From Escherichia coli (GTDB lineage: Bacteria > Pseudomonadota > Gammaproteobacteria > Enterobacterales > Enterobacteriaceae), in NCBI RefSeq assembly GCF_044324875.1, contig NZ_CP172185.1: a stretch of 64,000 bases of DNA, one strand, 5' to 3'. Position 1 is the first letter of the stretch. Each line of letters opens with the position of its first letter. The notes below the pieces were generated by a model. That model saw only the letters and a list, made by a program, of their open reading frames with translations, was not told where the DNA came from and did no database searches. The translations under genes were made by a program, and so were the position numbers. Below are positions 1 to 9,821 of the stretch, in pieces.

Positions 1-661
1 GGGTTACCAGCAGCAGCGCCAGGGGATAATGTGATGCCAGAACATCGGTTCCCTTCCGGACATCCTGTTCACCGCTGATAAAGAACAGTTCCTCTTCCGA
101 TACCTTTGCCACATCCGCCAGCATGAGCGCCCGGTGCAGACACTCACGCAGTTGCGATATGCTCTGCCACAGGTCAGTCCGGATGTTGGGGTCAAAGCTG
201 ACCCTGCCGCCAGCCTGCCGGATGTTCTCCATGGCCTGAAACGTGGCGCTGCGGCAGGGCTCTGCACTCAGGGCATTGGAGCAGGTATGCAGCCATTCAC
301 CGGCACGAAAGGGCGGTAAATCATCAGGGGTAAGGAAAAGGTCTGCCGAAGGGCGCACCATAAATGTGAAGGTTCGTTCACCACCCGGCACCAGCGACAC
401 CACCACTGTGGAAGTCCGGTACAGAGGGTCGGTATGCATATACGCCGTGTCCACACCCTCATCAGCCAGGGTTTTGCGCATAAAACGCCCGAAAGGGTCA
501 TCCCCCACACACCCGACAAACCCGCTCAGGCCCCCCAGTCGGGCCACGCCCACGGCAACATTGGCAGGCGCACCACCAGGGCACTGCAACAGCGTGCCCG
601 GCTTCTCCGGTAATAAATCCACCACGGCATCACCGAGACCCCATACTTTTACTGTACTCAT
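1..661 (-). CDS. Fructokinase, PfkB family (CscK/ScrK-like); N-terminal ~220 codons, 3' end lies beyond window start
   Basis: Start codon is complement of 659-661; hand translation gives MSTVKVWGLGDAVVDLLPEKPGTLLQCPGGAPANVAVGVARLGG..., matching enteric fructokinase N-terminus; frame stays open to position 2 (checked at both ends). Confidence 0.85.
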   Translation of the reverse strand, partial: MSTVKVWGLGDAVVDLLPEKPGTLLQCPGGAPANVAVGVARLGGLSGFVGCVGDDPFGRFMRKTLADEGVDTAYMHTDPLYRTSTVVVSLVPGGERTFTFMVRPSADLFLTPDDLPPFRAGEWLHTCSNALSAEPCRSATFQAMENIRQAGGRVSFDPNIRTDLWQSISQLRECLHRALMLADVAKVSEEELFFISGEQDVRKGTDVLASHYPLALLLVT

Positions 662-690
662 TCATACTCCATGATTTTCATCAGTCATAT

Positions 691-1267
691 TCAGCGGATG
701 ACAGACAGCTCAAACATCGCCATATCCGTGGTTCCGGCTGGAATTGGATACCAACCCGCATTCCGGAGCAGGGCAGCGAGGGCAGACACATCGCCGGTCA
801 GGGGATGCAGCAACCTCCCCTGATAATCAAATGCCGCCTCAAGACGTGAGCGGGAAAGATAAAAGCTGCCGGCATCCCCGTTCGGAACCACGACATTACG
901 CCCCTCCCATTTCCGGTCGCTCAGTATCCGCCAGCACCAGCCCTGCTCCCTGATGGTTTCCAGGGCGAATGTCAGGCGGAACAGGTCAGTCTGTACCGAC
1001 ACATCACCAGAGCAGGCCTGCCACAGATACTCCAGCCTGCTGCGGATATCTTTCGCCCCGCTTTCACTCTGCAGGGCTCTGATATGTGCGGGGAAAACGG
1101 TGCTGTTTCAGTGCTGTGCTCCGCCAGCGGTTTAGAAACAGGTTTTCCTGGATTTTTGACGCAATCCGGCCATCCCGGCGGGCCAGATGCAGGGCTACCA
1201 GCCCGCACCAGGTCAGATGTGCGGCTTTCCCTGATACCAGCTGCCCGCTGGCGATATTGTCACTCAT
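691..1267 (-). pseudogene. Unassigned ORF broken across three reading frames (possible frameshifted gene)
   Basis: Three overlapping minus-strand ORFs (1064-1267, 972-1208, 691-1002) in three frames tile a ~190-codon span between the EIIA-like gene and the fructokinase; no family recognised. Confidence 0.3.
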
Positions 1268-1272
1268 GGCGC

Positions 1273-1803
1273 TTACTGGCTGCTGATATCAAAAACCGGT
1301 GTTTCTCCGGCGATGACCGGGCCGGAGAACAGGGTTATCTCCTGGACACGGTCAGAGTCCGCCACAATCACCGGTGTCAGCGTGGACTGTGCTTTCTTCT
1401 GAAGTAACGCAAGGTCAAACCCGATGACGGGGTCACCGGTGCTGATCAGCTGGTCTTCCTGGGCAATACGCCGGAAACCCTCTCCCCTGAGGTCAACTGT
1501 GTTAATACCGAAGTGCACGAACAGTTCAGTGCCACTGTCGGTGCGGATGGAAAACGCGTGGTTTGTCTCCAGTATTTTACCGATAGTGCCGCTGACAGGA
1601 GCCACCAAGGTATCGCCGCCGGAAGGACGGATAGCAATACCATCCCCCACTATTTTCCCGGCAAACACAGCATCCGGAACCGTGTCCAGAGGGACAATTT
1701 CACCGGACAGCGGTGCCATCACGCGGGTGACTTCCGCCGGTTTCTCATTTTCACTTATCAGTTGTTTAATCCTGCCCAGTAATCCCATTGTGCTTTCCTT
1801 CAT
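1273..1803 (-). CDS. PTS EIIA(Glc)-family protein, Crr paralogue (likely start at MGLLGRIK, 1788)
   Basis: Translation contains APLSGEIVPLDTVPDAVFAGKIVGDGIAIRPSG...GTIGKILETNHAFSI...GTELFVHFGINTVDL.GEGF....STLTPV, collinear with E. coli Crr. Confidence 0.85.
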   Translation of the reverse strand: MKESTMGLLGRIKQLISENEKPAEVTRVMAPLSGEIVPLDTVPDAVFAGKIVGDGIAIRPSGGDTLVAPVSGTIGKILETNHAFSIRTDSGTELFVHFGINTVDLRGEGFRRIAQEDQLISTGDPVIGFDLALLQKKAQSTLTPVIVADSDRVQEITLFSGPVIAGETPVFDISSQ

Positions 1804-1851
1804 TACGGGTGAACCGAAAGTACTGCCGTCACCGACGGCAGTGGAATTATT

Positions 1852-3282
1852 TCAGGCCAGCGTCCACAGTGAGCCGTCCGTCAGCACAGCCTCGCCGTGA
1901 GCTGCATATAGCGACAACCGGCGGGTTCCGGGCTGCGGGTAAATACGGCTGGACAGGGTGGCATCGCCATCGTTAACGAACACTTCCACCGATGAACGGT
2001 CCAGGAAAACCCGTAGCGTCAGATATTCTGCGCCAGGCAGCGCGATACTGCGGTAACCGTCCAGCCCCTCATCCGGGTAGTGACGCCAAAGCACCAGCCG
2101 TCCTGCCTGGTTATCCACATACAGCCGGAGCCCGTCTCCCAGGTGGATGCCGTAATGCTCTGCCTGACTGTCGAGGGTATGCCACGTCAGCACCAGTTCC
2201 ACGGCCTGTGCGTCCTCAGCCAGCAACTGCGTGCCACTGAGCCTTACAGGGTGTAACGGCTGGCACGTCCCGCGAAGGGATTCGGCTTCGCGAACCGGAC
2301 GCTGACACAGACGACCATGGCGTTCAAAAAGTTCCCTCGGCAGGGTCAGACATCCGGCCCAGGCCTCACGCTTTGTAGGCATCGGGGAGTCCCACATATT
2401 CATCCAGGCCATGATGATGCGCCGTCCGTCCTCCGCGACCAGGGACTGCGGGGCATAAAAATCATGACCGTGATCCAGTTCTTCAAATGCCCCGCTCAGG
2501 GCAAAAGCGGCCCCCGGCTGCCAGTGACCCGGTAAAACTCCGCTCTGAAAGCGGTTGCGGAACCGGTATCCGCCGGGCGTCATCCCCTGCGGGGAGAACA
2601 TCAGCCAGTGATGGTCGCCACAGCGGAAAAAGTCCGGACATTCCCACATATAGCTTTCTCCGGCTGCCGACTGCGCCAGAACCCGTTCCTGGCGCCAGTC
2701 CCGCAGGGATGTGCCGCGATACAGCAGCACCTGACCGGTGTCAGAGGTATCCCGCGCGCCGATAACCATCCACCAGTATCCCCCTTCCCGCCAGACCTTC
2801 GGGTCACGGAAATGCATGATGCCTTCCGGTGGCGTCAGCACGCAGCCCTGTTTCTCAAAGTGAATGCCGTCACGGCTGGTTGCCAGACACTGGACTTCGC
2901 GGATGATGCTGTCATCCCCCCGATCCTCCAGACAGAGATGACCGGTGTAGATAAGCGACAGCACGCCGTTGTCGTCCACTGCGCTGCCGGAAAAACAGCC
3001 ATCCCGGTCATATTCATCACCGGGTGCCAGCGCAACCGGCTCATGCTGCCAGTGCAGCATGTCCGGACTGGTGGCATGTCCCCAGTGCATCGGCCCCTGA
3101 TGTTCACTTGCCGGATGGTGCTGAAAGAATGCGTGATAGCGACCGCTGAAATAAATAAGCCCGTTCGGATCATTCATCCATCCGGCAGGTGGAGCCAGAT
3201 GAAAAACCGGGTACCAGGTATCACCACGACGGGCGCGGAGTGTATCAAGTGCAACCTGTGCAGAGGCAAGACGCTGTTTCAT
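1852..3282 (-). CDS. rafD: Raffinose invertase / sucrose hydrolase, glycoside hydrolase family 32
   Basis: 476-aa ORF with GH32 N-terminal block WMNDPNGL and FSGSAVDD; last gene of a rafR-rafA-rafB cluster. Confidence 0.9.
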   Translation of the reverse strand: MKQRLASAQVALDTLRARRGDTWYPVFHLAPPAGWMNDPNGLIYFSGRYHAFFQHHPASEHQGPMHWGHATSPDMLHWQHEPVALAPGDEYDRDGCFSGSAVDDNGVLSLIYTGHLCLEDRGDDSIIREVQCLATSRDGIHFEKQGCVLTPPEGIMHFRDPKVWREGGYWWMVIGARDTSDTGQVLLYRGTSLRDWRQERVLAQSAAGESYMWECPDFFRCGDHHWLMFSPQGMTPGGYRFRNRFQSGVLPGHWQPGAAFALSGAFEELDHGHDFYAPQSLVAEDGRRIIMAWMNMWDSPMPTKREAWAGCLTLPRELFERHGRLCQRPVREAESLRGTCQPLHPVRLSGTQLLAEDAQAVELVLTWHTLDSQAEHYGIHLGDGLRLYVDNQAGRLVLWRHYPDEGLDGYRSIALPGAEYLTLRVFLDRSSVEVFVNDGDATLSSRIYPQPGTRRLSLYAAHGEAVLTDGSLWTLA

Positions 3283-4571
3283 AAGCGAACCTCCGTCTGT
3301 GCTGTAGCGGTTTCTGCTGACGGGGCAGCCGTTTTACGGGTACTGCTCAGGGTGAAAGCCGATAACACGGTGACCGCAAGGACAATACCGCCCAGAACCA
3401 GATAGGTGTTCTGGAACCCCATGCGGTCATACAGGTGACCTGCAAAGGTTGAGAGGAATATCGCCGCCAGTTGTTTGGAGAACTGAAAGCCAATCAGATA
3501 AATGGTGGCCGACAGCCGGGTATCAAACACGCCGGTGATATACTTGAACGCACCAACCAGCAGGAATGGGACTTCAAGGGCATGCAGCATTTTCAGGATC
3601 ACCACTTCAGTAGCCGTGGTGGCAAAGGCCGACCCTGTGATGCGGATGGTCATAATCAGACCCGCGACAAGCAGTGTGTTTTTGGCACCAATGCGGTTGA
3701 TTATCCAGGGGGAGCAGAACATGATGATGGCATTGCAAATCTCGCCAGCCGTGGTGGCAAAACCAAATGCCCGGATCCCCGCCTGCGGCGTGTCAAAAAA
3801 TGCACGGAAGAACGTGGCAAACTGCTGGTCAAACACGTCATAGACGCAGGCCACCCCAATCATGTAAAGCACGAACATCCACATCTGACGCATACGAAAC
3901 AGACTGAACACCATTCCGGCGGAAATCACGGGCGAGTTGGCACCCAGCGCATTCATGACCATCGCTGTCTGACTGGTTCCGGGACGCGCCAGCGCCACCA
4001 GAAGGACCAGCAGCAATGCGCAGCCGGACCCCATCCAGAATACCAGGGACGGATCCACGTTGAAAAGCAGCCCTGCCGTGGTGGCACACAGCGCCCAGCC
4101 CAGACAGCCGAACATCCGGGCCTTACCGTATTCAAATCCGCTGCTGCGGCTGACACGTTCAATATAGGCTTCGATGGCACCGGCTCCCGCAGAAAAAACG
4201 AAGCCGATAAAAATCCCGCCGCTCAGTGCTCCGGCCCAGATGTTGAACCGCAGCAGCGGCGCAAAAACGTACAGAAAGAACGGTGCAAACAGGACCAGCA
4301 GCAGGCTGATGATCCACATCAGGTGTTTTTTCAGGCCAAGACGGTCTGAGATGACCCCCAGCAGCGGCTGGAAGCTGATGGCAAACAGGGAGAGGCATGA
4401 AAAAACAATCCCGGTATCCGTTTTACTCAGCCCCACAATGTCTGACAGCCAGACGGGCAGAAACGGGAAACAGGTTGCCATGATGAAAAAGTAGAGAAAA
4501 AAGAACAGACCAAATATCCAGAAATCGGGGTTTTTATGAGTACTGACAGTATTCATTATTGTTATCCTCAC
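3279..4571 (-). CDS. rafB: Raffinose permease, LacY-type oligosaccharide:H+ symporter (MFS)
   Basis: 430-aa ORF; N-terminal NPDFWIFGLFFFLYFFIMATCFPFLPVWL and the rest are collinear with LacY; stop overlaps rafD start. Confidence 0.9.
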   Translation of the reverse strand: MRITIMNTVSTHKNPDFWIFGLFFFLYFFIMATCFPFLPVWLSDIVGLSKTDTGIVFSCLSLFAISFQPLLGVISDRLGLKKHLMWIISLLLVLFAPFFLYVFAPLLRFNIWAGALSGGIFIGFVFSAGAGAIEAYIERVSRSSGFEYGKARMFGCLGWALCATTAGLLFNVDPSLVFWMGSGCALLLVLLVALARPGTSQTAMVMNALGANSPVISAGMVFSLFRMRQMWMFVLYMIGVACVYDVFDQQFATFFRAFFDTPQAGIRAFGFATTAGEICNAIIMFCSPWIINRIGAKNTLLVAGLIMTIRITGSAFATTATEVVILKMLHALEVPFLLVGAFKYITGVFDTRLSATIYLIGFQFSKQLAAIFLSTFAGHLYDRMGFQNTYLVLGGIVLAVTVLSAFTLSSTRKTAAPSAETATAQTEVRL

Positions 4572-4610
4572 GGGACTGAGTGCAGGGAGCCGTGACCGGC
4601 TCCGGTCCTT

Positions 4611-6737
4611 TTATGCCAAACGTTCAAGGGCAATCAGCATGGCGCTTTCCGGATCCAGTACGGGAAGCTGAATACCGGCCTGCGCCAGCCATTCCCCACT
4701 GATGTCGGAGGTCTGGTTCATCCAGCCGGGCAGCCTGCGCATGGTATGCCCGCCTTCACCGACCAGCTGAATATCCGGATGGTCAACAACACGAAGCCGG
4801 TAACGGGCCTGTGGTGCCAGCCCCGGAAAACGTAGAGCACCCGGCAGGGTGTGATCCGGCATGGCAAGCTGGCTCACCAGGAAGAGCGCCTGCGACTGAT
4901 CCGGGCTGACCACCCCCTGCACCTGTGTCGCCGCATCCGGCATATCCACCCGCCATAGGGTGCCCGTGTGGATAAGCTGCCGCCATTCTTTGTAGAGCGA
5001 GGCATAGCGGCGGTAACCGGCGGATTCCTCTTCTCCGGCCGTTACCGGATCCAGCTCCAGTCCCATATGACCGAACAGGGCCGTCAGACCGCGAAAGGCA
5101 ATGCTGTGCTGCCGGAAGGTGGCATGGCAGCGATGATGACCGATGTGTGCCCCCATAACCTCCGGCGGGAAAAAGTAACTCATGCCACGCTGTATGGTGC
5201 AGCGCTCCAGGGCGTCATTGTTGTCAGAAGCCCAGAAGCGGTGCGTGCGGGTCAGAACCTCAAAGTCGATACGTCCACCGCCGGAAGCGCAGGACTCAAA
5301 CTCAACACGGGGAAAACGTTCGCGCAGGAGATCCAGCAGCCGGTAAAACTGACGGGTCTGCGCGTCCGCCGCCGCCCGACCTTCATGCCCGGCCTGGACC
5401 AGCTCGCGGTTCATGTCCCATTTCACATAGTCAACTGGGTGTTCGCCCAGCAGCCATAAACAGCGTTCATAAATGTAAGCAAAGGCCTCAGGAATGTTCA
5501 GGTTGAGAACATACTGATGTCTCCCGGTTGGTTGTGTGTACCCCGGCATTGACAGTACCCAGTCAGGATGGCGGCGAAAGAGGTCAGAGTCCGGGTTAAT
5601 CATTTCCGGTTCCACCCAGATACCGAACTCCATGCCGAGTGATTTCACATGGTTAATCACCGGCATCAGTCCGTCCGGATACTTCTGTTCATCCAGATAC
5701 CAGTCGCCCAGAGCCGCATGGTCATCATTGCGCCCCTTAAACCAGCCGTCGTCGATAATGAAACGTTCAACGCCAAGCGCTGCCGCACGTCCGGCCATCT
5801 GCATGATGTAGTTCGGGTCGTGGTCAAAATAAATACCTTCCCAGGTATTGAGGTGCACCGGACGGGGTTTCTGCTCAGGAAAACGGATGATTTCATCGCG
5901 CAGAAAACGGTGGTACTGCTGACTCATACCATTGAGCCCCTCCGGGGAATAGCTGGCGTACAGCCACGGCGTGTACACGGTCTCATCCTTCTTCAGGGCT
6001 TTTTCTCCGGGCATCCACAGTGCTTCCGCCTGGAGGTAACGCCGTCCGTCAGTTTTGACCTCACATTTCATGCGATGGTTGCCACTCCAGCCCAGATGTA
6101 CGGCCCACACCTCGCCCTGCTGTTCTGAGAAACCGGGGGCACCGGCAATCAGTGCCGGAAAATGCTCATGGGACGTGCGGCCCCGGCGGTTCTCCAGCAC
6201 AAAACCGTCATGTGTGAGACGGACCCTGTGCGGCTGAAACTCACGAGTCCAGCGTCCGTGGAAGGCCATGACTTCCTCTGCCCTTTCAGCCACAGGGAGC
6301 GTGATGGCGAAGCGGTTCACCTGCCAGTCCCCTTCACGGAGGTTCGTCAGGGCATGACGCATCTTCAGCACACCGGACGATGTCAGCACCAGTTCACTGA
6401 CCATGCGCAGACCCGCCACTGCATCCTCACTGGTCAGGGTGAGTGATTCTCCGGCCTGTACCACGCTGATGGTACGGAACACAGGGGACGCATCCAGCCC
6501 GTTGCGGTGTCCCTCCAGCCCCGGCGAGCCAAAAAGTCCCGCGCCGTTTTCGGCCATCAGCGTCAGTGGGGTGTCGGTATCCAGACGACCATTCGCAACC
6601 GGCCTTTCCAGGCTGATACAGTCATCCGGTGAAAAGTGTTTCAGGGTGGATCCCCACCAGACAATCTCTGCATACGGGTGGGTTTTAATAATCAGGTCTG
6701 AGTGGGGACTGGTCAGCCTGCGGTACATCGGTTCCAT
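4611..6737 (-). CDS. rafA: Alpha-galactosidase, glycoside hydrolase family 36
   Basis: 708-aa ORF directly downstream of the LacI-type regulator and operators; length and position match RafA. Confidence 0.9.
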   Translation of the reverse strand: MEPMYRRLTSPHSDLIIKTHPYAEIVWWGSTLKHFSPDDCISLERPVANGRLDTDTPLTLMAENGAGLFGSPGLEGHRNGLDASPVFRTISVVQAGESLTLTSEDAVAGLRMVSELVLTSSGVLKMRHALTNLREGDWQVNRFAITLPVAERAEEVMAFHGRWTREFQPHRVRLTHDGFVLENRRGRTSHEHFPALIAGAPGFSEQQGEVWAVHLGWSGNHRMKCEVKTDGRRYLQAEALWMPGEKALKKDETVYTPWLYASYSPEGLNGMSQQYHRFLRDEIIRFPEQKPRPVHLNTWEGIYFDHDPNYIMQMAGRAAALGVERFIIDDGWFKGRNDDHAALGDWYLDEQKYPDGLMPVINHVKSLGMEFGIWVEPEMINPDSDLFRRHPDWVLSMPGYTQPTGRHQYVLNLNIPEAFAYIYERCLWLLGEHPVDYVKWDMNRELVQAGHEGRAAADAQTRQFYRLLDLLRERFPRVEFESCASGGGRIDFEVLTRTHRFWASDNNDALERCTIQRGMSYFFPPEVMGAHIGHHRCHATFRQHSIAFRGLTALFGHMGLELDPVTAGEEESAGYRRYASLYKEWRQLIHTGTLWRVDMPDAATQVQGVVSPDQSQALFLVSQLAMPDHTLPGALRFPGLAPQARYRLRVVDHPDIQLVGEGGHTMRRLPGWMNQTSDISGEWLAQAGIQLPVLDPESAMLIALERLA

Positions 6738-6772
6738 AAGACATCTCCGTTTTCGGGTATGCCTTACTGTTG

Positions 6773-6811
6773 ATCCGAATCGTTTCGGATAGCAACCGAA
6801 ACGATTCGGAT
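6773..6811 (-). promoter_or_regulatory. raf operator pair (two adjacent ~18-bp palindromes) in rafA promoter region
   Basis: atccgaatcgtttcggat (6773-6790) and aaccgaaacgattcggat (6794-6811) lie between rafR stop and rafA start. Confidence 0.7.
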
Positions 6812-6830
6812 TTGTGAGCGGGATTAAAAA

Positions 6831-7841
6831 TCAGGCGGAGGGAGCAAGCGTTGTCTTGCCAGGATGAAATTCCGGCTGCCAGAGTACTTGTAGCATTTCA
6901 GGTGAAACATTCGTGACCAGCTGGCGTATCATGTCGGCAATCTGACGACCGACGCGATGTCGTGTTGACTGAAGAACTGCAGCCACATCCTGTTCAATAA
7001 TACTGTCCTGCGGCAGACCATCATAAACCACAAGAGAGACGGCATCCTCTCCGGACAGATGACCGGATAACTGCAGCGACATGGCCGCGCCATCACCGAT
7101 CAGGTCACTGTCGGTAATAATGGCCGTCGGGGGAAGCGGAAGTGACATTAACTCAGTCACTGCCTGGAAACCTGAGCGTCGGGTGGGAGAGACCCGGCGT
7201 AGCCAGGTCTCAGGCAGACCATGTTCACTCAGGGCATCGCGCCATCCCTGACGTCGTGCAGTGACATAGGCACGGGAGTTGTCCTCACTCAGCAGGGCAA
7301 TTCGCTGATGGCCCAGGGCAATCAGGTGCTGTGTGGCCTGCCAGGTTCCTGCATGGTTATCAAAGTCAAACCAGGCACAGGGAAGACCGGACGGCACCTG
7401 ACCGAGTGCCAGAAACGGAATACCGGCCTCCTGCAGGTGTGTAAGACGCGGGTCATTATCCATCGTGTGCGCCACGATAAGGGCATCAACCCGGCGGCTT
7501 TCGACCAGACGCATATAGCTGTGGCTGTCAGCCCGTTCATCATCGGCTATCAGCAGTAAGTCAATATCATGGCGGGCCAGTTCCCGGCTGATACAACTGA
7601 CCATATCCACAAACACACTACTGCTGAACAGTACAGCATGTTCAGGGAAGACCAGGCCGACCGCATCGGTTTTACCGGTTTTGAGACGTCTTGCCAGGGT
7701 ATTCGGGCGATAACCACGACGCCGAGCTTCCGCTTCTACACGTGCACGGGTCGAAGCGGAAACGTCCGAAAATCCGCCAAGCGCCCGGCTGACTGTGGTG
7801 ACAGAGATCCCGAGTTCGGCGGCGATAGCCTTGAGTGACAT
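6831..7841 (-). CDS. rafR: LacI-family repressor of the raf operon
   Basis: 336-aa ORF; N-terminal HTH MSLKAIAAELGISVTTVSRALGG typical of LacI/GalR family. Confidence 0.9.
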   Translation of the reverse strand: MSLKAIAAELGISVTTVSRALGGFSDVSASTRARVEAEARRRGYRPNTLARRLKTGKTDAVGLVFPEHAVLFSSSVFVDMVSCISRELARHDIDLLLIADDERADSHSYMRLVESRRVDALIVAHTMDNDPRLTHLQEAGIPFLALGQVPSGLPCAWFDFDNHAGTWQATQHLIALGHQRIALLSEDNSRAYVTARRQGWRDALSEHGLPETWLRRVSPTRRSGFQAVTELMSLPLPPTAIITDSDLIGDGAAMSLQLSGHLSGEDAVSLVVYDGLPQDSIIEQDVAAVLQSTRHRVGRQIADMIRQLVTNVSPEMLQVLWQPEFHPGKTTLAPSA

Positions 7842-8266
7842 ATTTTCTCCTGCGGATAACTGAACAGCCCTGTCCCTGATGCGGGTGATCCGGGCAACAA
7901 ACCTGACAGAGACGCCTGCATAAGTGGTCGCGCTGTACCAGTATGAGCCTCCATCATCCTGATTTGTGTATTAACTTTCAATACCGGAGGACGATTTGAT
8001 TACCGGTTGTTAGCAGGAGTGCGAATATTAGACCGACGGTGGAGATCTAAGACTCAGTGAGCATAGCGATACACTATATTACTGTAATTAAGCCAGTAAA
8101 CTTCCTGTTCACTGGCTTAAACGCTAATGATGTATGCAGTTGAACAAGCTTTTAAACTAATGATTAATTGATATATAGACTGGCCCCCTGAATCTCCAGA
8201 CAATCAATATCACTTAAATAAGTGATAGTCTTAATACTAGTTTTTAGACTAGTCATTGGAGAACAG

Positions 8267-8632
8267 ATGATTGATGTCTTAGGGCCGGAGAAACGCAGAC
8301 GGCGTACCACACAGGAAAAGATCGCAATTGTTCAGCAGAGCTTTGAACCGGGGATGACGGTCTCCCTCGTTGCCCGGCAACATGGTGTAGCAGCCAGCCA
8401 GTTATTTCTCTGGCGTAAGCAATACCAGGAAGGAAGTCTTACTGCTGTCGCCGCCGGAGAACAGGTTGTTCCTGCCTCTGAACTTGCTGCCGCCATGAAG
8501 CAGATTAAAGAACTCCAGCGCCTGCTCGGCAAGAAAACGATGGAAAATGAACTCCTCAAAGAAGCCGTTGAATATGGACGGGCAAAAAAGTGGATAGCGC
8601 ACGCGCCCTTATTGCCCGGGGATGGGGAGTAA
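8267..8632 (+). CDS. insC: IS2 transposase OrfA
   Basis: [56 protein letters not shown]..., 121 aa. Confidence 0.9.
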
Positions 8633-9495
8633 GCTTAGTCAGCCGTTGTCTCCGGGTGTCGCGTGCGCAGTTGCACGTCATTCTCAGACGAACCGATGAC
8701 TGGATGGATGGCCGCCGCAGTCGTCACACTGATGATACGGATGTGCTTCTCCGTATACACCATGTTATCGGAGAGCTGCCAACGTATGGTTATCGTCGGG
8801 TATGGGCGCTGCTTCGCAGACAGGCAGAACTTGATGGTATGCCTGCGATCAATGCCAAACGTGTTTACCGGATCATGCGCCAGAATGCGCTGTTGCTTGA
8901 GCGAAAACCCGCTGTACCGCCATCGAAACGGGCACATACCGGCAGAGTGGCTGTGAAAGAAAGTAATCAGCGATAGTGCTCTGACGGGTTTGAGTTCCGC
9001 TGTGATAACGGAGAAAAACTGCGGGTCACGTTCGCGCTGGACTGCTGTGACCGTGAGGCACTGCACTGGGCGGTCACAACGGGTGGCTTCGACAGTGAAA
9101 CAGTACAGGACGTCATGCTGGGAGCAGTGGAACGCCGCTTTGGCAGCGAGCTTCCGGCGTCTCCAGTGGAGTGGCTGACGGATAATGGTTCATGCTACCG
9201 GGCGAATGAAACACGTCAGTTCGCCAGGATGTTGGGACTTGAACCGAAGAACACGGCAGTGCGGAGTCCGGAGAGTAACGGAATAGCAGAGAGCTTCGTG
9301 AAAACGATAAAGCGTGACTACATAAGTATCATGCCCAAACCAGACGGGTTAACGGCAGCAAAGAACCTTGCAGAGGCGTTCGAGCATTATAACGAATGGC
9401 ATCCGCATAGTGCACTGGGTTATCGCTCGCCACGGGAATATCTACGGCAGCGGGCCAGTAATGGGTTAAGTGATAACAGGTGTCTGGAAATATAG
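8590..9495 (+). pseudogene. insD: IS2 transposase OrfB interrupted by in-frame amber codon (TAG at 8974-8976)
   Basis: Frame reads ...KESNQR-TAG-CSDGFEF...; ORFs 8590-8976 and 9115-9495 are in the same frame; intact IS2 has W (TGG) here as I recall it. Confidence 0.8.
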
Positions 9496-9506
9496 GGGCA
9501 AATCCA

Positions 9507-9794
9507 ATCGTTAGCCATGGCCTCCCTACTCCAGAGATAATATAAAGGGGCGGGCTCAACAGATTTATCTTTACGTCGCTTGCACTGCAAATATTCAGAA
9601 ATTAGTCTATGCAGTTCACCAGTAAAATCAGCCATCAGAGAGGGAATTGCCTTATTCATACCTGGGCAAGGTATTAATTTAAATTGTAATAATTTAATTT
9701 TAGGATGTGTAGCTGCAGCCCGATACAGAGTTGCAAGGACACACTTTTGCCAGAGGACGTTACAGGAAAGCTTAATGTTTGATTCTGTATACAT
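9507..9794 (-). pseudogene. 5' fragment (96 codons) of an unassigned gene truncated by IS2
   Basis: Minus-strand ORF starting at 9794 (MYTESNIKLSCNVLWQKCV...) runs straight into the IS2 right end at 9506. Confidence 0.35.
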
Positions 9795-9821
9795 AATAAA
9801 TCACCTTACAGTTACAATAGG

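What the first reader, a model, noticed from the sequence alone, without database searches (positions are those of the whole stretch)
1273..1803. Second EIIA(Glc) (Crr) paralogue embedded in the raffinose cluster
EIIA(Glc) mediates inducer exclusion by binding LacY-type permeases, and RafB is LacY-like. A horizontally acquired, cluster-linked Crr paralogue could give private regulation of raffinose uptake or act as a decoy for the host Crr. I do not recall this in the classical rafRABD operon.
Basis: inference. Interest (0 to 1): 0.5.

Follow-up and report, generated by a model that had tools for sequence, protein, structure and literature searches.

The report
Raffinose-operon copy of PTS regulator EIIA(Glc)
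A second, diverged copy of the sugar-signalling protein EIIA(Glc) (Crr) is built into a mobile raffinose-utilisation operon and is switched on by raffinose. It probably lets the operon tune its own sugar uptake to the cell's energy state, but this role has not been tested.

Summary
Window 1273-1788 (minus strand; the ORF runs to 1803) encodes an intact 171-aa EIIA(Glc)/Crr-type protein. It is 60% identical to E. coli Crr and keeps both active-site histidines, the hydrophobic patch and the N-terminal amphipathic helix. It lies 63 nt after rafD, in the order rafR | rafA-rafB-rafD-crr'-DUF2913(frameshifted)-fructokinase-porin.

It is not a stray fragment of a PTS operon. Among 5.8 billion proteins its only close relatives are two further raf-linked lineages (Klebsiella michiganensis, Citrobacter braakii). 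They form one clade with a shared one-residue insertion, and each sits 63-65 nt after rafD. In those two lineages rafD-crr' is a separate unit with its own RafR operator copy. dN/dS is 0.13, similar to the raf enzymes.

Classical pRSD2-type raf operons lack the gene. About 4.5% of complete E. coli genomes carry it, alongside housekeeping crr.

Function is inferred only. The most likely role is a raffinose-induced, PTS-phosphorylatable regulator acting at the membrane on RafB ("private" inducer exclusion). Changed charged residues around the active site suggest narrowed or changed partner specificity. No held paper describes it. I rate it a new variant of a known kind, of moderate interest.

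The parts
1273..1788 (-). crr' : 171-aa raf-linked EIIA(Glc) paralogue. The open frame extends to 1803. The His75/His90 equivalents of Crr are His77 and His92.
1796..1800 (-). Shine-Dalgarno sequence AAGGA, 7 nt upstream of the ATG at 1788
   Evidence: read from the sequence; AGGAG/GGAG at the same place in the Klebsiella and Citrobacter loci
1822..1842 (-). 9-bp GC-rich hairpin in the rafD-crr' spacer with a poor U tract. It may be a partial terminator or an mRNA-stabilising element. It is specific to the E. coli-type cluster.
   Evidence: spacer folds at -20 kcal/mol, z -2.4; weak in Klebsiella, absent in Citrobacter
1852..3282 (-). rafD, GH32 invertase. It is the constant upstream neighbour of crr' in all three lineages.
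   Evidence: (TIGR01322, 445 bits)
3279..4556 (-). rafB, LacY-family raffinose permease. It is the most likely target of the EIIA paralogue (inferred).
   Evidence: (TIGR00882, 679 bits)
4611..6737 (-). rafA, GH36 alpha-galactosidase
6775..6809 (-). twin RafR operators (CCGAATCGTTTCGG and CCGAAACGATTCGG) of the rafA promoter, preceded by a CRP-like half site. These are the only operators in the window, so crr' is read from this promoter.
6831..7841 (-). rafR, LacI-family repressor
691..1267 (-). DUF2913 gene broken by a frameshift (ORFs 1064-1267 and 691-1002). Its start lies 5 nt after the crr' stop. It is a relic of conjugative-plasmid backbone.
1..661 (-). fructokinase gene (5' part; cut by the window edge). 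A ScrY/LamB-type porin gene follows it outside the window.
   Evidence: NF006957, 476 bits against a cut-off of 450

Best explanation
crr' is a functional, raffinose-inducible EIIA(Glc)-class protein that belongs to the RafR regulon. Shown here: it is an intact EIIA(Glc) fold with both histidines. It belongs to a small clade found only next to rafD in raf clusters. It is transcribed from RafR/CRP-type promoters and is under purifying selection. Inferred: HPr~P phosphorylates it on His92. Its N-terminal amphipathic helix takes it to the membrane. In the dephospho form it binds and slows the co-expressed LacY-type permease RafB. Raffinose uptake would then track the PTS phosphorylation state, and hence the PEP:pyruvate ratio and the presence of PTS sugars. 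Because EIIA(Glc) inhibits permeases stoichiometrically (1:1), an operon-encoded copy would keep control over an abundant RafB without draining the host's Crr pool. The altered charged rim around the active site suggests it has shed or changed some of Crr's many other partnerships.
For: Identity and fold. Clade: a profile built from the raf-linked sequences scores them at 306-339 bits and every housekeeping Crr at <=265 bits. The NJ bootstrap for the clade is 99/100. All three lineages share a one-residue insertion after Pro54 and the substitutions E43G, E97D, I33L and V139I, which none of 104 housekeeping sequences has.

Linkage: the gene lies 63-65 nt after rafD in E. coli, Klebsiella and Citrobacter clusters, although those clusters are arranged differently. 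All the raf proteins have diverged to a similar degree (61-78% aa).

Co-regulation: the RafR operator palindrome occurs upstream of the separate rafD-crr' units. There are two copies in Klebsiella and one in Citrobacter, against 0.06-0.09 expected by chance, each preceded by the same CRP-like half site.

Selection: dN/dS between Klebsiella and Citrobacter is 0.13 for crr', against 0.09 for rafD and 0.06-0.12 for rafA and rafB. crr' is retained in E. coli genomes where IS3 has removed the downstream fructokinase and porin genes.

Membrane targeting: the N-terminal pattern and hydrophobic moment resemble those of Crr, and the model shows a helix at residues 3-12. In Vibrio cholerae EIIA(Glc) this helix is needed only for integral-membrane partners (PMC6123446).

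Precedent: IIA(Glc) binds LacY 1:1 (PMC8154325). RafB is a reported Crr target (Titgemeyer 1994, listed as ref. 7 in PMC4996493). The Firmicute permeases LacS and RafP carry a fused IIA(Glc) domain (PMC2848229).
Against: There is no direct evidence for phosphorylation or for binding to RafB. Classical raf operons work without the gene. The constant neighbour is rafD, not rafB. In Klebsiella and Citrobacter crr' is transcribed separately from rafB.

RafB from crr'-bearing clusters shows no clear compensating changes in the loops said to bind IIA(Glc). Ten positions differ, but they are equally explained by ancestry.

Several acidic rim residues that are near-invariant in housekeeping Crr are lost or reversed: E43G, E80K/R and D94N/S. 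From memory of the HPr-IIA(Glc) complex, at least D94 contacts HPr, so phosphotransfer could be weakened.

Within the almost clonal E. coli block, crr' carries an excess of differences, all of them amino-acid changing (4 of 9 in 6% of the length, p 0.0015). This could mean relaxed constraint in E. coli.
Confidence: 0.4

Rival explanations
1. It is an extra phosphocarrier: a working Crr duplicate that passes phosphate from HPr to EIICB permeases (PtsG, ScrA, TreB, MalX). This would raise PTS capacity for recapturing glucose that leaks out after intracellular raffinose and sucrose hydrolysis, or replace Crr tied up by RafB.
For: The protein exceeds the curated cut-off of the NCBIfam equivalog model for Crr. 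Both histidines, the hydrophobic patch and the membrane helix are kept. It is always paired with the invertase that releases glucose.
Against: No EIIB/EIIC gene lies in any of the clusters. All hosts already have crr. Rim residues that are near-invariant in housekeeping Crr are changed. Non-synonymous divergence between the Klebsiella and Citrobacter forms is high (dN 0.16), whereas housekeeping Crr of E. coli and Klebsiella is about 98% identical. That does not fit an unchanged set of partners.
Confidence: 0.2
2. It is a regulator with new logic or a new target. Either the phosphorylated form activates RafB (LacS/RafP-like, but acting in trans), or the protein regulates the adjacent GH32 invertase RafD as Crr regulates glycerol kinase.
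For: rafD-crr' behaves as a two-gene module. It is always adjacent, it has its own RafR operator in two lineages, and it has diverged far more than rafA/rafB between Klebsiella and Citrobacter (83% and 75% against 96-98% aa). The active-site face is conserved within the clade and includes clade-specific residues. LacS and RafP are a precedent.
Against: The retained N-terminal amphipathic helix points to a membrane partner rather than the soluble RafD. Adjacency may simply reflect the ancestral gene order. There are no interaction data.
Confidence: 0.15
3. It is a decoy or buffer. It would compete with host Crr for RafB without inhibiting, or soak up HPr~P, so that raffinose use escapes glucose control.
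For: The rim residues are altered while the core is conserved.
Against: The operon keeps a CRP-type half site and would not be induced in glucose anyway. No feature specifically indicates loss of inhibitory capacity.
Confidence: 0.08
4. It is a passenger that no longer matters in E. coli and is kept only because the block is young and clonal.
For: All E. coli copies are >=99% identical. The neighbouring DUF2913 gene is already broken. crr' carries an excess of purely non-synonymous differences, including N76K beside His77 and K45E at an otherwise invariant site. A hairpin precedes the gene.
Against: The gene is intact in every annotated copy seen, while its neighbour is frameshifted. It has stayed open and under purifying selection across three lineages as far apart as 61% aa identity. 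The number of alleles per residue is no higher than for the raf genes.
Confidence: 0.12
5. It is the remnant of a separate sugar PTS operon (for example scrK-scrY-scrA) truncated next to raf.
For: Fructokinase and ScrY-like porin genes follow it, and IS fragments lie beyond the porin gene.
Against: The same rafD-crr' pair occurs in Klebsiella and Citrobacter with no fructokinase, scrA or any EIIBC gene, and with RafR operators. A raf cluster with rafD-fructokinase-porin but no crr' also exists. G+C content matches the raf genes.
Confidence: 0.03

Closest known systems
Housekeeping EIIA(Glc) / Crr of Enterobacterales and Vibrionales (ptsH-ptsI-crr operon; PDB 1F3G, 1GLA, 1GGR, 4JBW, 3OUR)
   Same: Same size, fold (TM 0.95), both active-site histidines, the G47/A76/S78 equivalents, hydrophobic patch, and N-terminal amphipathic helix followed by a flexible linker. 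It scores above the NCBIfam equivalog cut-off.
   Different: It is only 58-63% identical to any housekeeping Crr, whereas those are 78-83% identical to each other across orders and about 98% within Enterobacteriaceae. It has a one-residue insertion after Pro54 and clade-specific changes of near-invariant rim residues: E43G, E80K/R, D94N/S, E97D, K132Q/V and the segment 142-151. It is encoded in a RafR/CRP-controlled raffinose operon on mobile DNA, not after ptsI.
Classical plasmid raf operon rafR-rafA-rafB-rafD(-rafY) (pRSD2 type)
   Same: rafRABD are collinear and about 79% identical in DNA. They share the same twin operators and CRP-like half site.
   Different: The classical form has no EIIA gene. 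The porin gene (L013) or fructokinase plus porin genes (L014) follow rafD directly. Relative to L014 the window carries a 1.14-kb segment (707-1848) holding the hairpin, crr' and the DUF2913 relic.
LacS / RafP galactoside and raffinose permeases of Firmicutes, with a C-terminal IIA(Glc) domain
   Same: A non-PTS galactoside/raffinose transporter is coupled to its own EIIA(Glc)-type module that HPr can phosphorylate. In both cases the PTS signal is wired privately to one uptake system (PMC2848229, PMC8154325).
   Different: There the IIA is fused in cis to a GPH-family carrier, and the phospho-form is the active one. Here it is a separate gene next to the invertase gene, the carrier is LacY-family, and the protein derives from the gammaproteobacterial Crr lineage. 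The resemblance is convergent, not shared membership.

Membership tests
EIIA(Glc)/Crr (Pfam PTS_EIIA_1; NCBIfam NF006962) | PTS_EIIA_1 domain over the whole core, scoring above the curated equivalog cut-off | tested here: met
   Pfam E 3.5e-42; NF006962 234.8 bits against a cut-off of 212
EIIA(Glc)/Crr (Pfam PTS_EIIA_1; NCBIfam NF006962) | Phospho-accepting His (His90) and the second active-site His (His75) in their conserved motifs | tested here: met
   NHAFS and FVHFG are aligned and invariant in all three raf-linked lineages (His77, His92)
EIIA(Glc)/Crr (Pfam PTS_EIIA_1; NCBIfam NF006962) | Beta-sandwich fold of IIA(Glc) | tested here: met
   AlphaFold pLDDT 84; Foldseek hits 1f3g and 3our_B at TM 0.95 (target-normalised), rmsd 1.4 A
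EIIA(Glc)/Crr (Pfam PTS_EIIA_1; NCBIfam NF006962) | N-terminal amphipathic membrane-anchor helix followed by a flexible linker | tested here: met
   The hydrophobic/basic pattern is conserved (M1, K8, L10, I11, S12 invariant). The hydrophobic moment is 0.38-0.51 against 0.47 for Crr, though it is not significant against shuffles. The model shows a helix at 3-12 and low confidence at 12-18.
EIIA(Glc)/Crr (Pfam PTS_EIIA_1; NCBIfam NF006962) | Near-invariant charged rim of housekeeping Crr (E43, E80, D94, E97, K132, N142-K151) | tested here: not met
   These residues are changed in all three raf-linked lineages
EIIA(Glc)/Crr (Pfam PTS_EIIA_1; NCBIfam NF006962) | Encoded in the ptsH-ptsI-crr operon as the single cellular copy | tested here: not met
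   It lies after rafD in a mobile raf cluster. Housekeeping crr is present as well in 5425 of 5426 genomes. For comparison, ptsHI-crr context is seen in L012.
EIIA(Glc)/Crr (Pfam PTS_EIIA_1; NCBIfam NF006962) | Phosphotransfer HPr~P to IIA to IIB(Glc), and inhibition of LacY, MalK and GlpK by the dephospho form | not testable with these tools
   Needs biochemistry or genetics
raf regulon (rafR-rafA-rafB-rafD) | LacI-type RafR with twin palindromic operators at the rafA promoter | tested here: met
   rafR at 6831-7841; operators at 6775-6788 and 6796-6809
raf regulon (rafR-rafA-rafB-rafD) | GH36 alpha-galactosidase, LacY-family permease and GH32 invertase in that order | tested here: met
raf regulon (rafR-rafA-rafB-rafD) | crr' itself under RafR control | tested here: inconclusive
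   Its position in the operon (E. coli) and the operator copies upstream of rafD-crr' (Klebsiella two, Citrobacter one) argue for it. No expression data were available.
LacS/RafP-type permease-IIA fusions | IIA(Glc) domain fused to a GPH-family carrier | tested here: not met
   crr' is a separate 171-aa protein, and RafB is TIGR00882/LacY family with no IIA domain

The most novel reading that the evidence does not exclude
The raf-linked EIIA clade has evolved a private partner specificity. It would no longer serve the general Crr network. Instead it would make a LacY-family permease (or the paired GH32 invertase) directly dependent on PTS phosphorylation state. That would be a trans-acting enterobacterial counterpart of the fused IIA domain of the Firmicute raffinose/lactose permeases RafP and LacS, arrived at independently, and it travels with the operon as a portable regulatory plug-in.
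Probability: 0.2. Interest if true: 0.65.

Novelty: new variant of a known kind. Interest (0 to 1): 0.5.

Why it matters
Crr is one of the best-studied regulatory hubs in bacteria, and it is normally treated as a single, chromosomal, highly constrained protein. An operon-encoded, substrate-induced paralogue that moves with a catabolic island would show that inducer exclusion can be carried and tuned by mobile DNA.

It also offers a natural experiment on EIIA(Glc) specificity. The core is conserved, but about a dozen otherwise near-invariant rim residues are changed.

There is a practical side. In this survey many of the genomes carrying this raf variant were listed as coming from poultry and pigs. 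Raffinose from soy meal is a major gut carbon source for poultry, and one held study reports chicken-associated variation in the raf operon (PMC12815263). The gene could therefore affect how efficiently such strains use raffinose. All of this can be tested with standard genetics.

Tried and rejected
1. Truncated PTS operon. tblastn of all cluster proteins against the Klebsiella and Citrobacter loci found no EIIBC, fructokinase or DUF2913 there, so I rejected this idea.

2. Plasmid survey by tblastn. Apart from nine records with the E. coli type, the hits at about 60% identity were housekeeping ptsHI-crr on records labelled as plasmids, or IIA domains of NagE and BglF. No further raf-linked lineage turned up.

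3. Hits P0114 and P0086 (65% identity over 87% of the length). These lie after ptsI, so they are housekeeping genes.

4. Scan of 100,044 species-representative genomes for the clade signature HFGI[N/S]TVDL. It returned only unrelated Firmicutes and Bacteroidetes hits, so the clade is purely accessory.

5. DUF2913 as a functional partner. I rejected this. The gene is frameshifted, absent from the other lineages, and a common conjugative-plasmid backbone gene.

6. Conservation of the rafD-crr' hairpin. It is not conserved across lineages.

7. RafB co-variation. Ten discriminating positions were found, but none is convincing.

8. Literature. Ten full-text searches, including the RefSeq protein accessions, found no paper that mentions an EIIA/crr gene in an enterobacterial raf cluster. 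The strain Sanji genome paper lists a chromosomal 'rafRABDY' insertion without mentioning crr.

9. Primary structural papers (Chen 2013; Bao and Duong 2013; Titgemeyer 1994) are not held. Residue-level statements about the HPr, MalK and GlpK interfaces therefore rest on memory and are marked as leads.

Full report
**1. What is there**

The minus strand of window 1-7841 carries one sugar cluster:
- rafR (6831-7841)
- a 93-nt control region
- rafA (4611-6737)
- rafB (3279-4556)
- rafD (1852-3282)
- a 63-nt spacer
- the reported ORF (1273-1803)
- two ORF pieces of a DUF2913 gene (1064-1267 and 691-1002)
- the start of a fructokinase gene (1-661)

In identical copies elsewhere a ScrY/LamB-type porin gene follows the fructokinase gene.

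The reported ORF most likely starts at the ATG at 1788, giving 171 aa. An AAGGA sequence lies 7 nt upstream. That start aligns with Met-Gly-Leu of Crr, and RefSeq annotates the same 516 nt as crr.

The product is an EIIA(Glc):
- Pfam PTS_EIIA_1, E 3.5e-42.
- NCBIfam equivalog NF006962, 234.8 bits against a cut-off of 212.
- End-to-end alignment with solved E. coli and Vibrio EIIA(Glc) at E 1e-62 to 1e-64, with both histidine motifs intact.
- An AlphaFold model (pLDDT 84) that superposes on 1f3g at TM 0.95 and 1.4 A.

It is a second copy. 5425 of 5426 complete E. coli genomes hold housekeeping crr at about 68% nt identity, and 243-247 also hold this gene at >=99%.

**2. It is a distinct, raf-bound lineage and not a stray Crr**

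In a search of 5.8 billion proteins there is a gap between the E. coli alleles (>=96% identity) and everything else (<=66%).

Three hits of 170 aa proved not to be housekeeping genes. These were the Klebsiella michiganensis type (two near-identical clusters, P0054 and P0047) and the Citrobacter braakii type (P0044). The contigs looked up, for P0054 and P0044, carry raf clusters in which the gene again lies 63-65 nt downstream of the GH32 gene rafD.

A profile built from the raf-linked sequences scores them at 306-339 bits and every housekeeping Crr at 265 bits or less. No further lineage appears.

The three lineages group together in 99 of 100 NJ bootstraps. Long-branch attraction is a caveat. 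Against it, they share a rare change, a one-residue insertion after Pro54, and substitutions at positions that are near-invariant in 104 housekeeping sequences.

They are 58-63% identical to housekeeping Crr of Enterobacterales, Vibrionales and Aeromonadales alike. Those housekeeping proteins are 78-83% identical to one another.

A signature scan of 100,044 species-representative genomes found no enterobacterial hit, so the clade exists only in accessory DNA.

**3. Co-regulation with raffinose catabolism**

The window holds the RafR twin operators (CCGAATCGTTTCGG and CCGAAACGATTCGG) only at the rafA promoter (6775-6809). No sigma-70-like promoter is predicted near crr'. crr' is therefore read as the fourth gene of rafABD-crr'.

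The other two lineages are arranged differently:
- Citrobacter: rafR-rafA-rafB-porin, then rafD-crr'.
- Klebsiella: rafD-crr', then rafR-rafA-rafB-porin.

In both, the separate rafD-crr' unit has its own copy of the raf control region. Klebsiella has both operators, and that control segment is 89% identical to the window's over 55 nt. Citrobacter has one operator. Each copy is preceded by the same TTTTA-N6-TCACA CRP-like half site. Chance expectation is 0.06-0.09 sites per locus.

The EIIA gene therefore appears to be under RafR control in all three lineages. This is a sequence-based inference without expression data.

**4. Selection and history**

Between Klebsiella and Citrobacter, dN/dS is 0.13 for crr', 0.09 for rafD and 0.06-0.10 for rafA and rafB.

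In that same pair rafA and rafB are 96-98% identical, but rafD is 83% and crr' 75%. The rafD-crr' pair therefore behaves as a separately exchanged two-gene module.

Classical pRSD2-type plasmids have rafRABD-porin, and another variant has rafRABD-fructokinase-porin. Both are about 79% identical to the window in DNA, and neither has crr'. A tblastn search of 72,556 plasmids found the gene only in nine records of the E. coli type.

Relative to the fructokinase variant, the window has a 1.14-kb extra segment (707-1848) holding a hairpin, crr' and the DUF2913 relic.

The window's rafD is closer to the classical rafD than to the Klebsiella and Citrobacter ones, yet crr' is shared with those distant clusters and has diverged in step with rafD. 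The simplest history is an ancestral rafD-crr' pair that the classical lineage later lost. Acquisition by recombination cannot be excluded.

The G+C content of crr' (55-58%) matches the raf genes and not the island flanks (38-48%).

DUF2913 is a common conjugative-plasmid backbone gene, found in 3267 plasmids. Here it is frameshifted. I read it as a relic of a plasmid stage and not as part of the system.

**5. What the sequence says about mechanism**

Conserved in all three lineages:
- both histidines (His77 and His92)
- the G47, A76 and S78 equivalents
- the hydrophobic ring around the active site (F71L in the E. coli type only)
- the N-terminal amphipathic pattern

The model predicts a helix at residues 3-12 followed by a low-confidence linker. 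The hydrophobic moment is like that of Crr.

In Vibrio cholerae EIIA(Glc) this helix is dispensable for cytoplasmic partners and essential for integral-membrane partners (PMC6123446). Its retention therefore points to a membrane target.

Changed in all three lineages, at positions near-invariant in housekeeping Crr (literature numbering): I33L, E43G, +1 residue after P54, E80K/R, D94N/S, E97D, K132Q/V, V139I, N142D/E, M143S/T, E145x, K147x and K151L/P.

From memory of the HPr, IIB(Glc), GlpK and MalK complexes, several of these ring the active-site face. The relevant papers are not held, so this is a lead and not a test. The pattern fits a protein that can still be phosphorylated but has a narrowed or altered set of partners.

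**6. Best explanation and rivals**

I consider a raffinose-induced, PTS-phosphorylatable regulator acting at the membrane on RafB the most likely reading (confidence 0.4). The supporting context is:
- IIA(Glc) inhibits LacY-type carriers by 1:1 binding (PMC8154325).
- RafB is a reported Crr target (Titgemeyer 1994, as listed in PMC4996493).
- An operon-encoded copy would keep the regulator in proportion to the permease without depleting host Crr.
- The Firmicute permeases LacS and RafP reach the same end with a fused IIA domain (PMC2848229).

The rivals are:
- a plain extra phosphocarrier (0.2)
- LacS-like activation, or control of the adjacent invertase (0.15)
- a passenger decaying in E. coli (0.12)
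- a decoy (0.08)
- a remnant of a truncated PTS operon (0.03, essentially refuted)

The main evidence against the best explanation is:
- there are no binding or phosphorylation data
- classical raf operons work without the gene
- RafB shows no convincing co-variation
- the constant neighbour is rafD, not rafB
- in the almost clonal E. coli block, 4 of 9 differences between the window and strain BEN5202 fall in crr', and all are non-synonymous, including N76K beside His77 (p 0.0015). This was a post-hoc comparison.

The number of distinct sequences (including fragments) per residue in the 90%-identity cluster is, however, no higher for crr' than for the raf genes.

**7. Novelty**

The gene is routinely auto-annotated as 'crr' in about 4.5% of complete E. 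coli genomes.

None of ten full-text searches found a paper that mentions an EIIA gene in an enterobacterial raf cluster. One genome paper describes a chromosomal raf-bearing insertion simply as rafRABDY (PMC6392093).

The held library misses most subscription journals, so prior description cannot be ruled out.

I class this as a new variant of a known kind: a known operon with an added, conserved regulatory-type component from a known protein family. Interest is moderate (0.5). It is a clean, testable lead on portable carbon-catabolite control, and no new mechanism has been shown.

Noticed in passing
window 691-1267 (-): The DUF2913 gene is split by a frameshift near 1064-1075. Its start lies 5 nt after the crr' stop. 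The same break is annotated as two ORFs in most E. coli copies shown. Intact relatives are a very common conjugative-plasmid backbone gene (3267 PLSDB plasmids, in some next to a ProQ/FinO-family gene), so this looks like a relic of a plasmid stage of the raf block.
   Followed up: yes
window 1273-1788 compared with L001 16273-16788 and L002 11273-11788: Inside an otherwise almost clonal 8.2-kb block, crr' holds 4 of the 9 differences to strain BEN5202. All four are non-synonymous: V62M, N76K (next to His77), D112G and K131Q. Other alleles carry R22S/C, K45E, Q113R, P139A, S169N or S170R. I could not tell whether this reflects relaxed or diversifying selection.
   Followed up: partly
L002 22731-23045 (-) (E. 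coli PN43 record NZ_MG591698): A stand-alone 104-aa EIIB(Glc)-domain protein (TIGR00826, 53.9 bits against a cut-off of 45.75) sits inside a galactan-utilisation cluster about 4 kb beyond rafR. The cluster holds a LacI regulator, maltoporin, beta-galactosidase, endo-1,4-galactanase and ABC permeases. It is another orphan PTS domain in a non-PTS sugar cluster. It is not present in the window.
   Followed up: partly
L003 and L006 (Klebsiella michiganensis and Citrobacter braakii raf loci): These raf clusters are mosaics. rafA and rafB are 96-98% identical between the two species, but rafD is 83% and crr' 75%. The position of the rafD-crr' unit relative to rafRAB-porin also differs.
   Followed up: yes
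window 1822-1842 (-): A strong 9-bp GC hairpin lies between rafD and crr', with a poor U tract. It belongs to the 1.14-kb segment that is absent from the crr'-less variant L014. It may set the rafD:crr' expression ratio.
   Followed up: partly
window 8176-20497: The raf block lies in a chromosomal island: an IS2-like element (about 8176-9500), an inovirus-Gp2-like gene (10914-11477), an IS21 transposase (16750-18396) and an integrase (19289-20497). The island abuts phoH, efeB, putP, putA and the tor genes. No tRNA gene is present in the window. The same raf block sits in a different island next to nfeF/aer in strain BEN5202 (L001), and on E. coli and Salmonella plasmids.
   Followed up: partly
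L021 (E. coli M719 chromosome) 8207-9775: In about two dozen complete genomes an IS3-family element has removed the 3' part of DUF2913, the fructokinase gene and the porin gene. This leaves rafRABD-crr' as the minimal cluster.
   Followed up: partly
window 3279-4556 (RafB), LacY-equivalent positions 75 and 206: RafB proteins from crr'-bearing clusters share His and Pro at two cytoplasmic-loop positions where the crr'-less classical RafB proteins have Asn and Ser. This is one of ten such differences and is probably just lineage history.
   Followed up: partly
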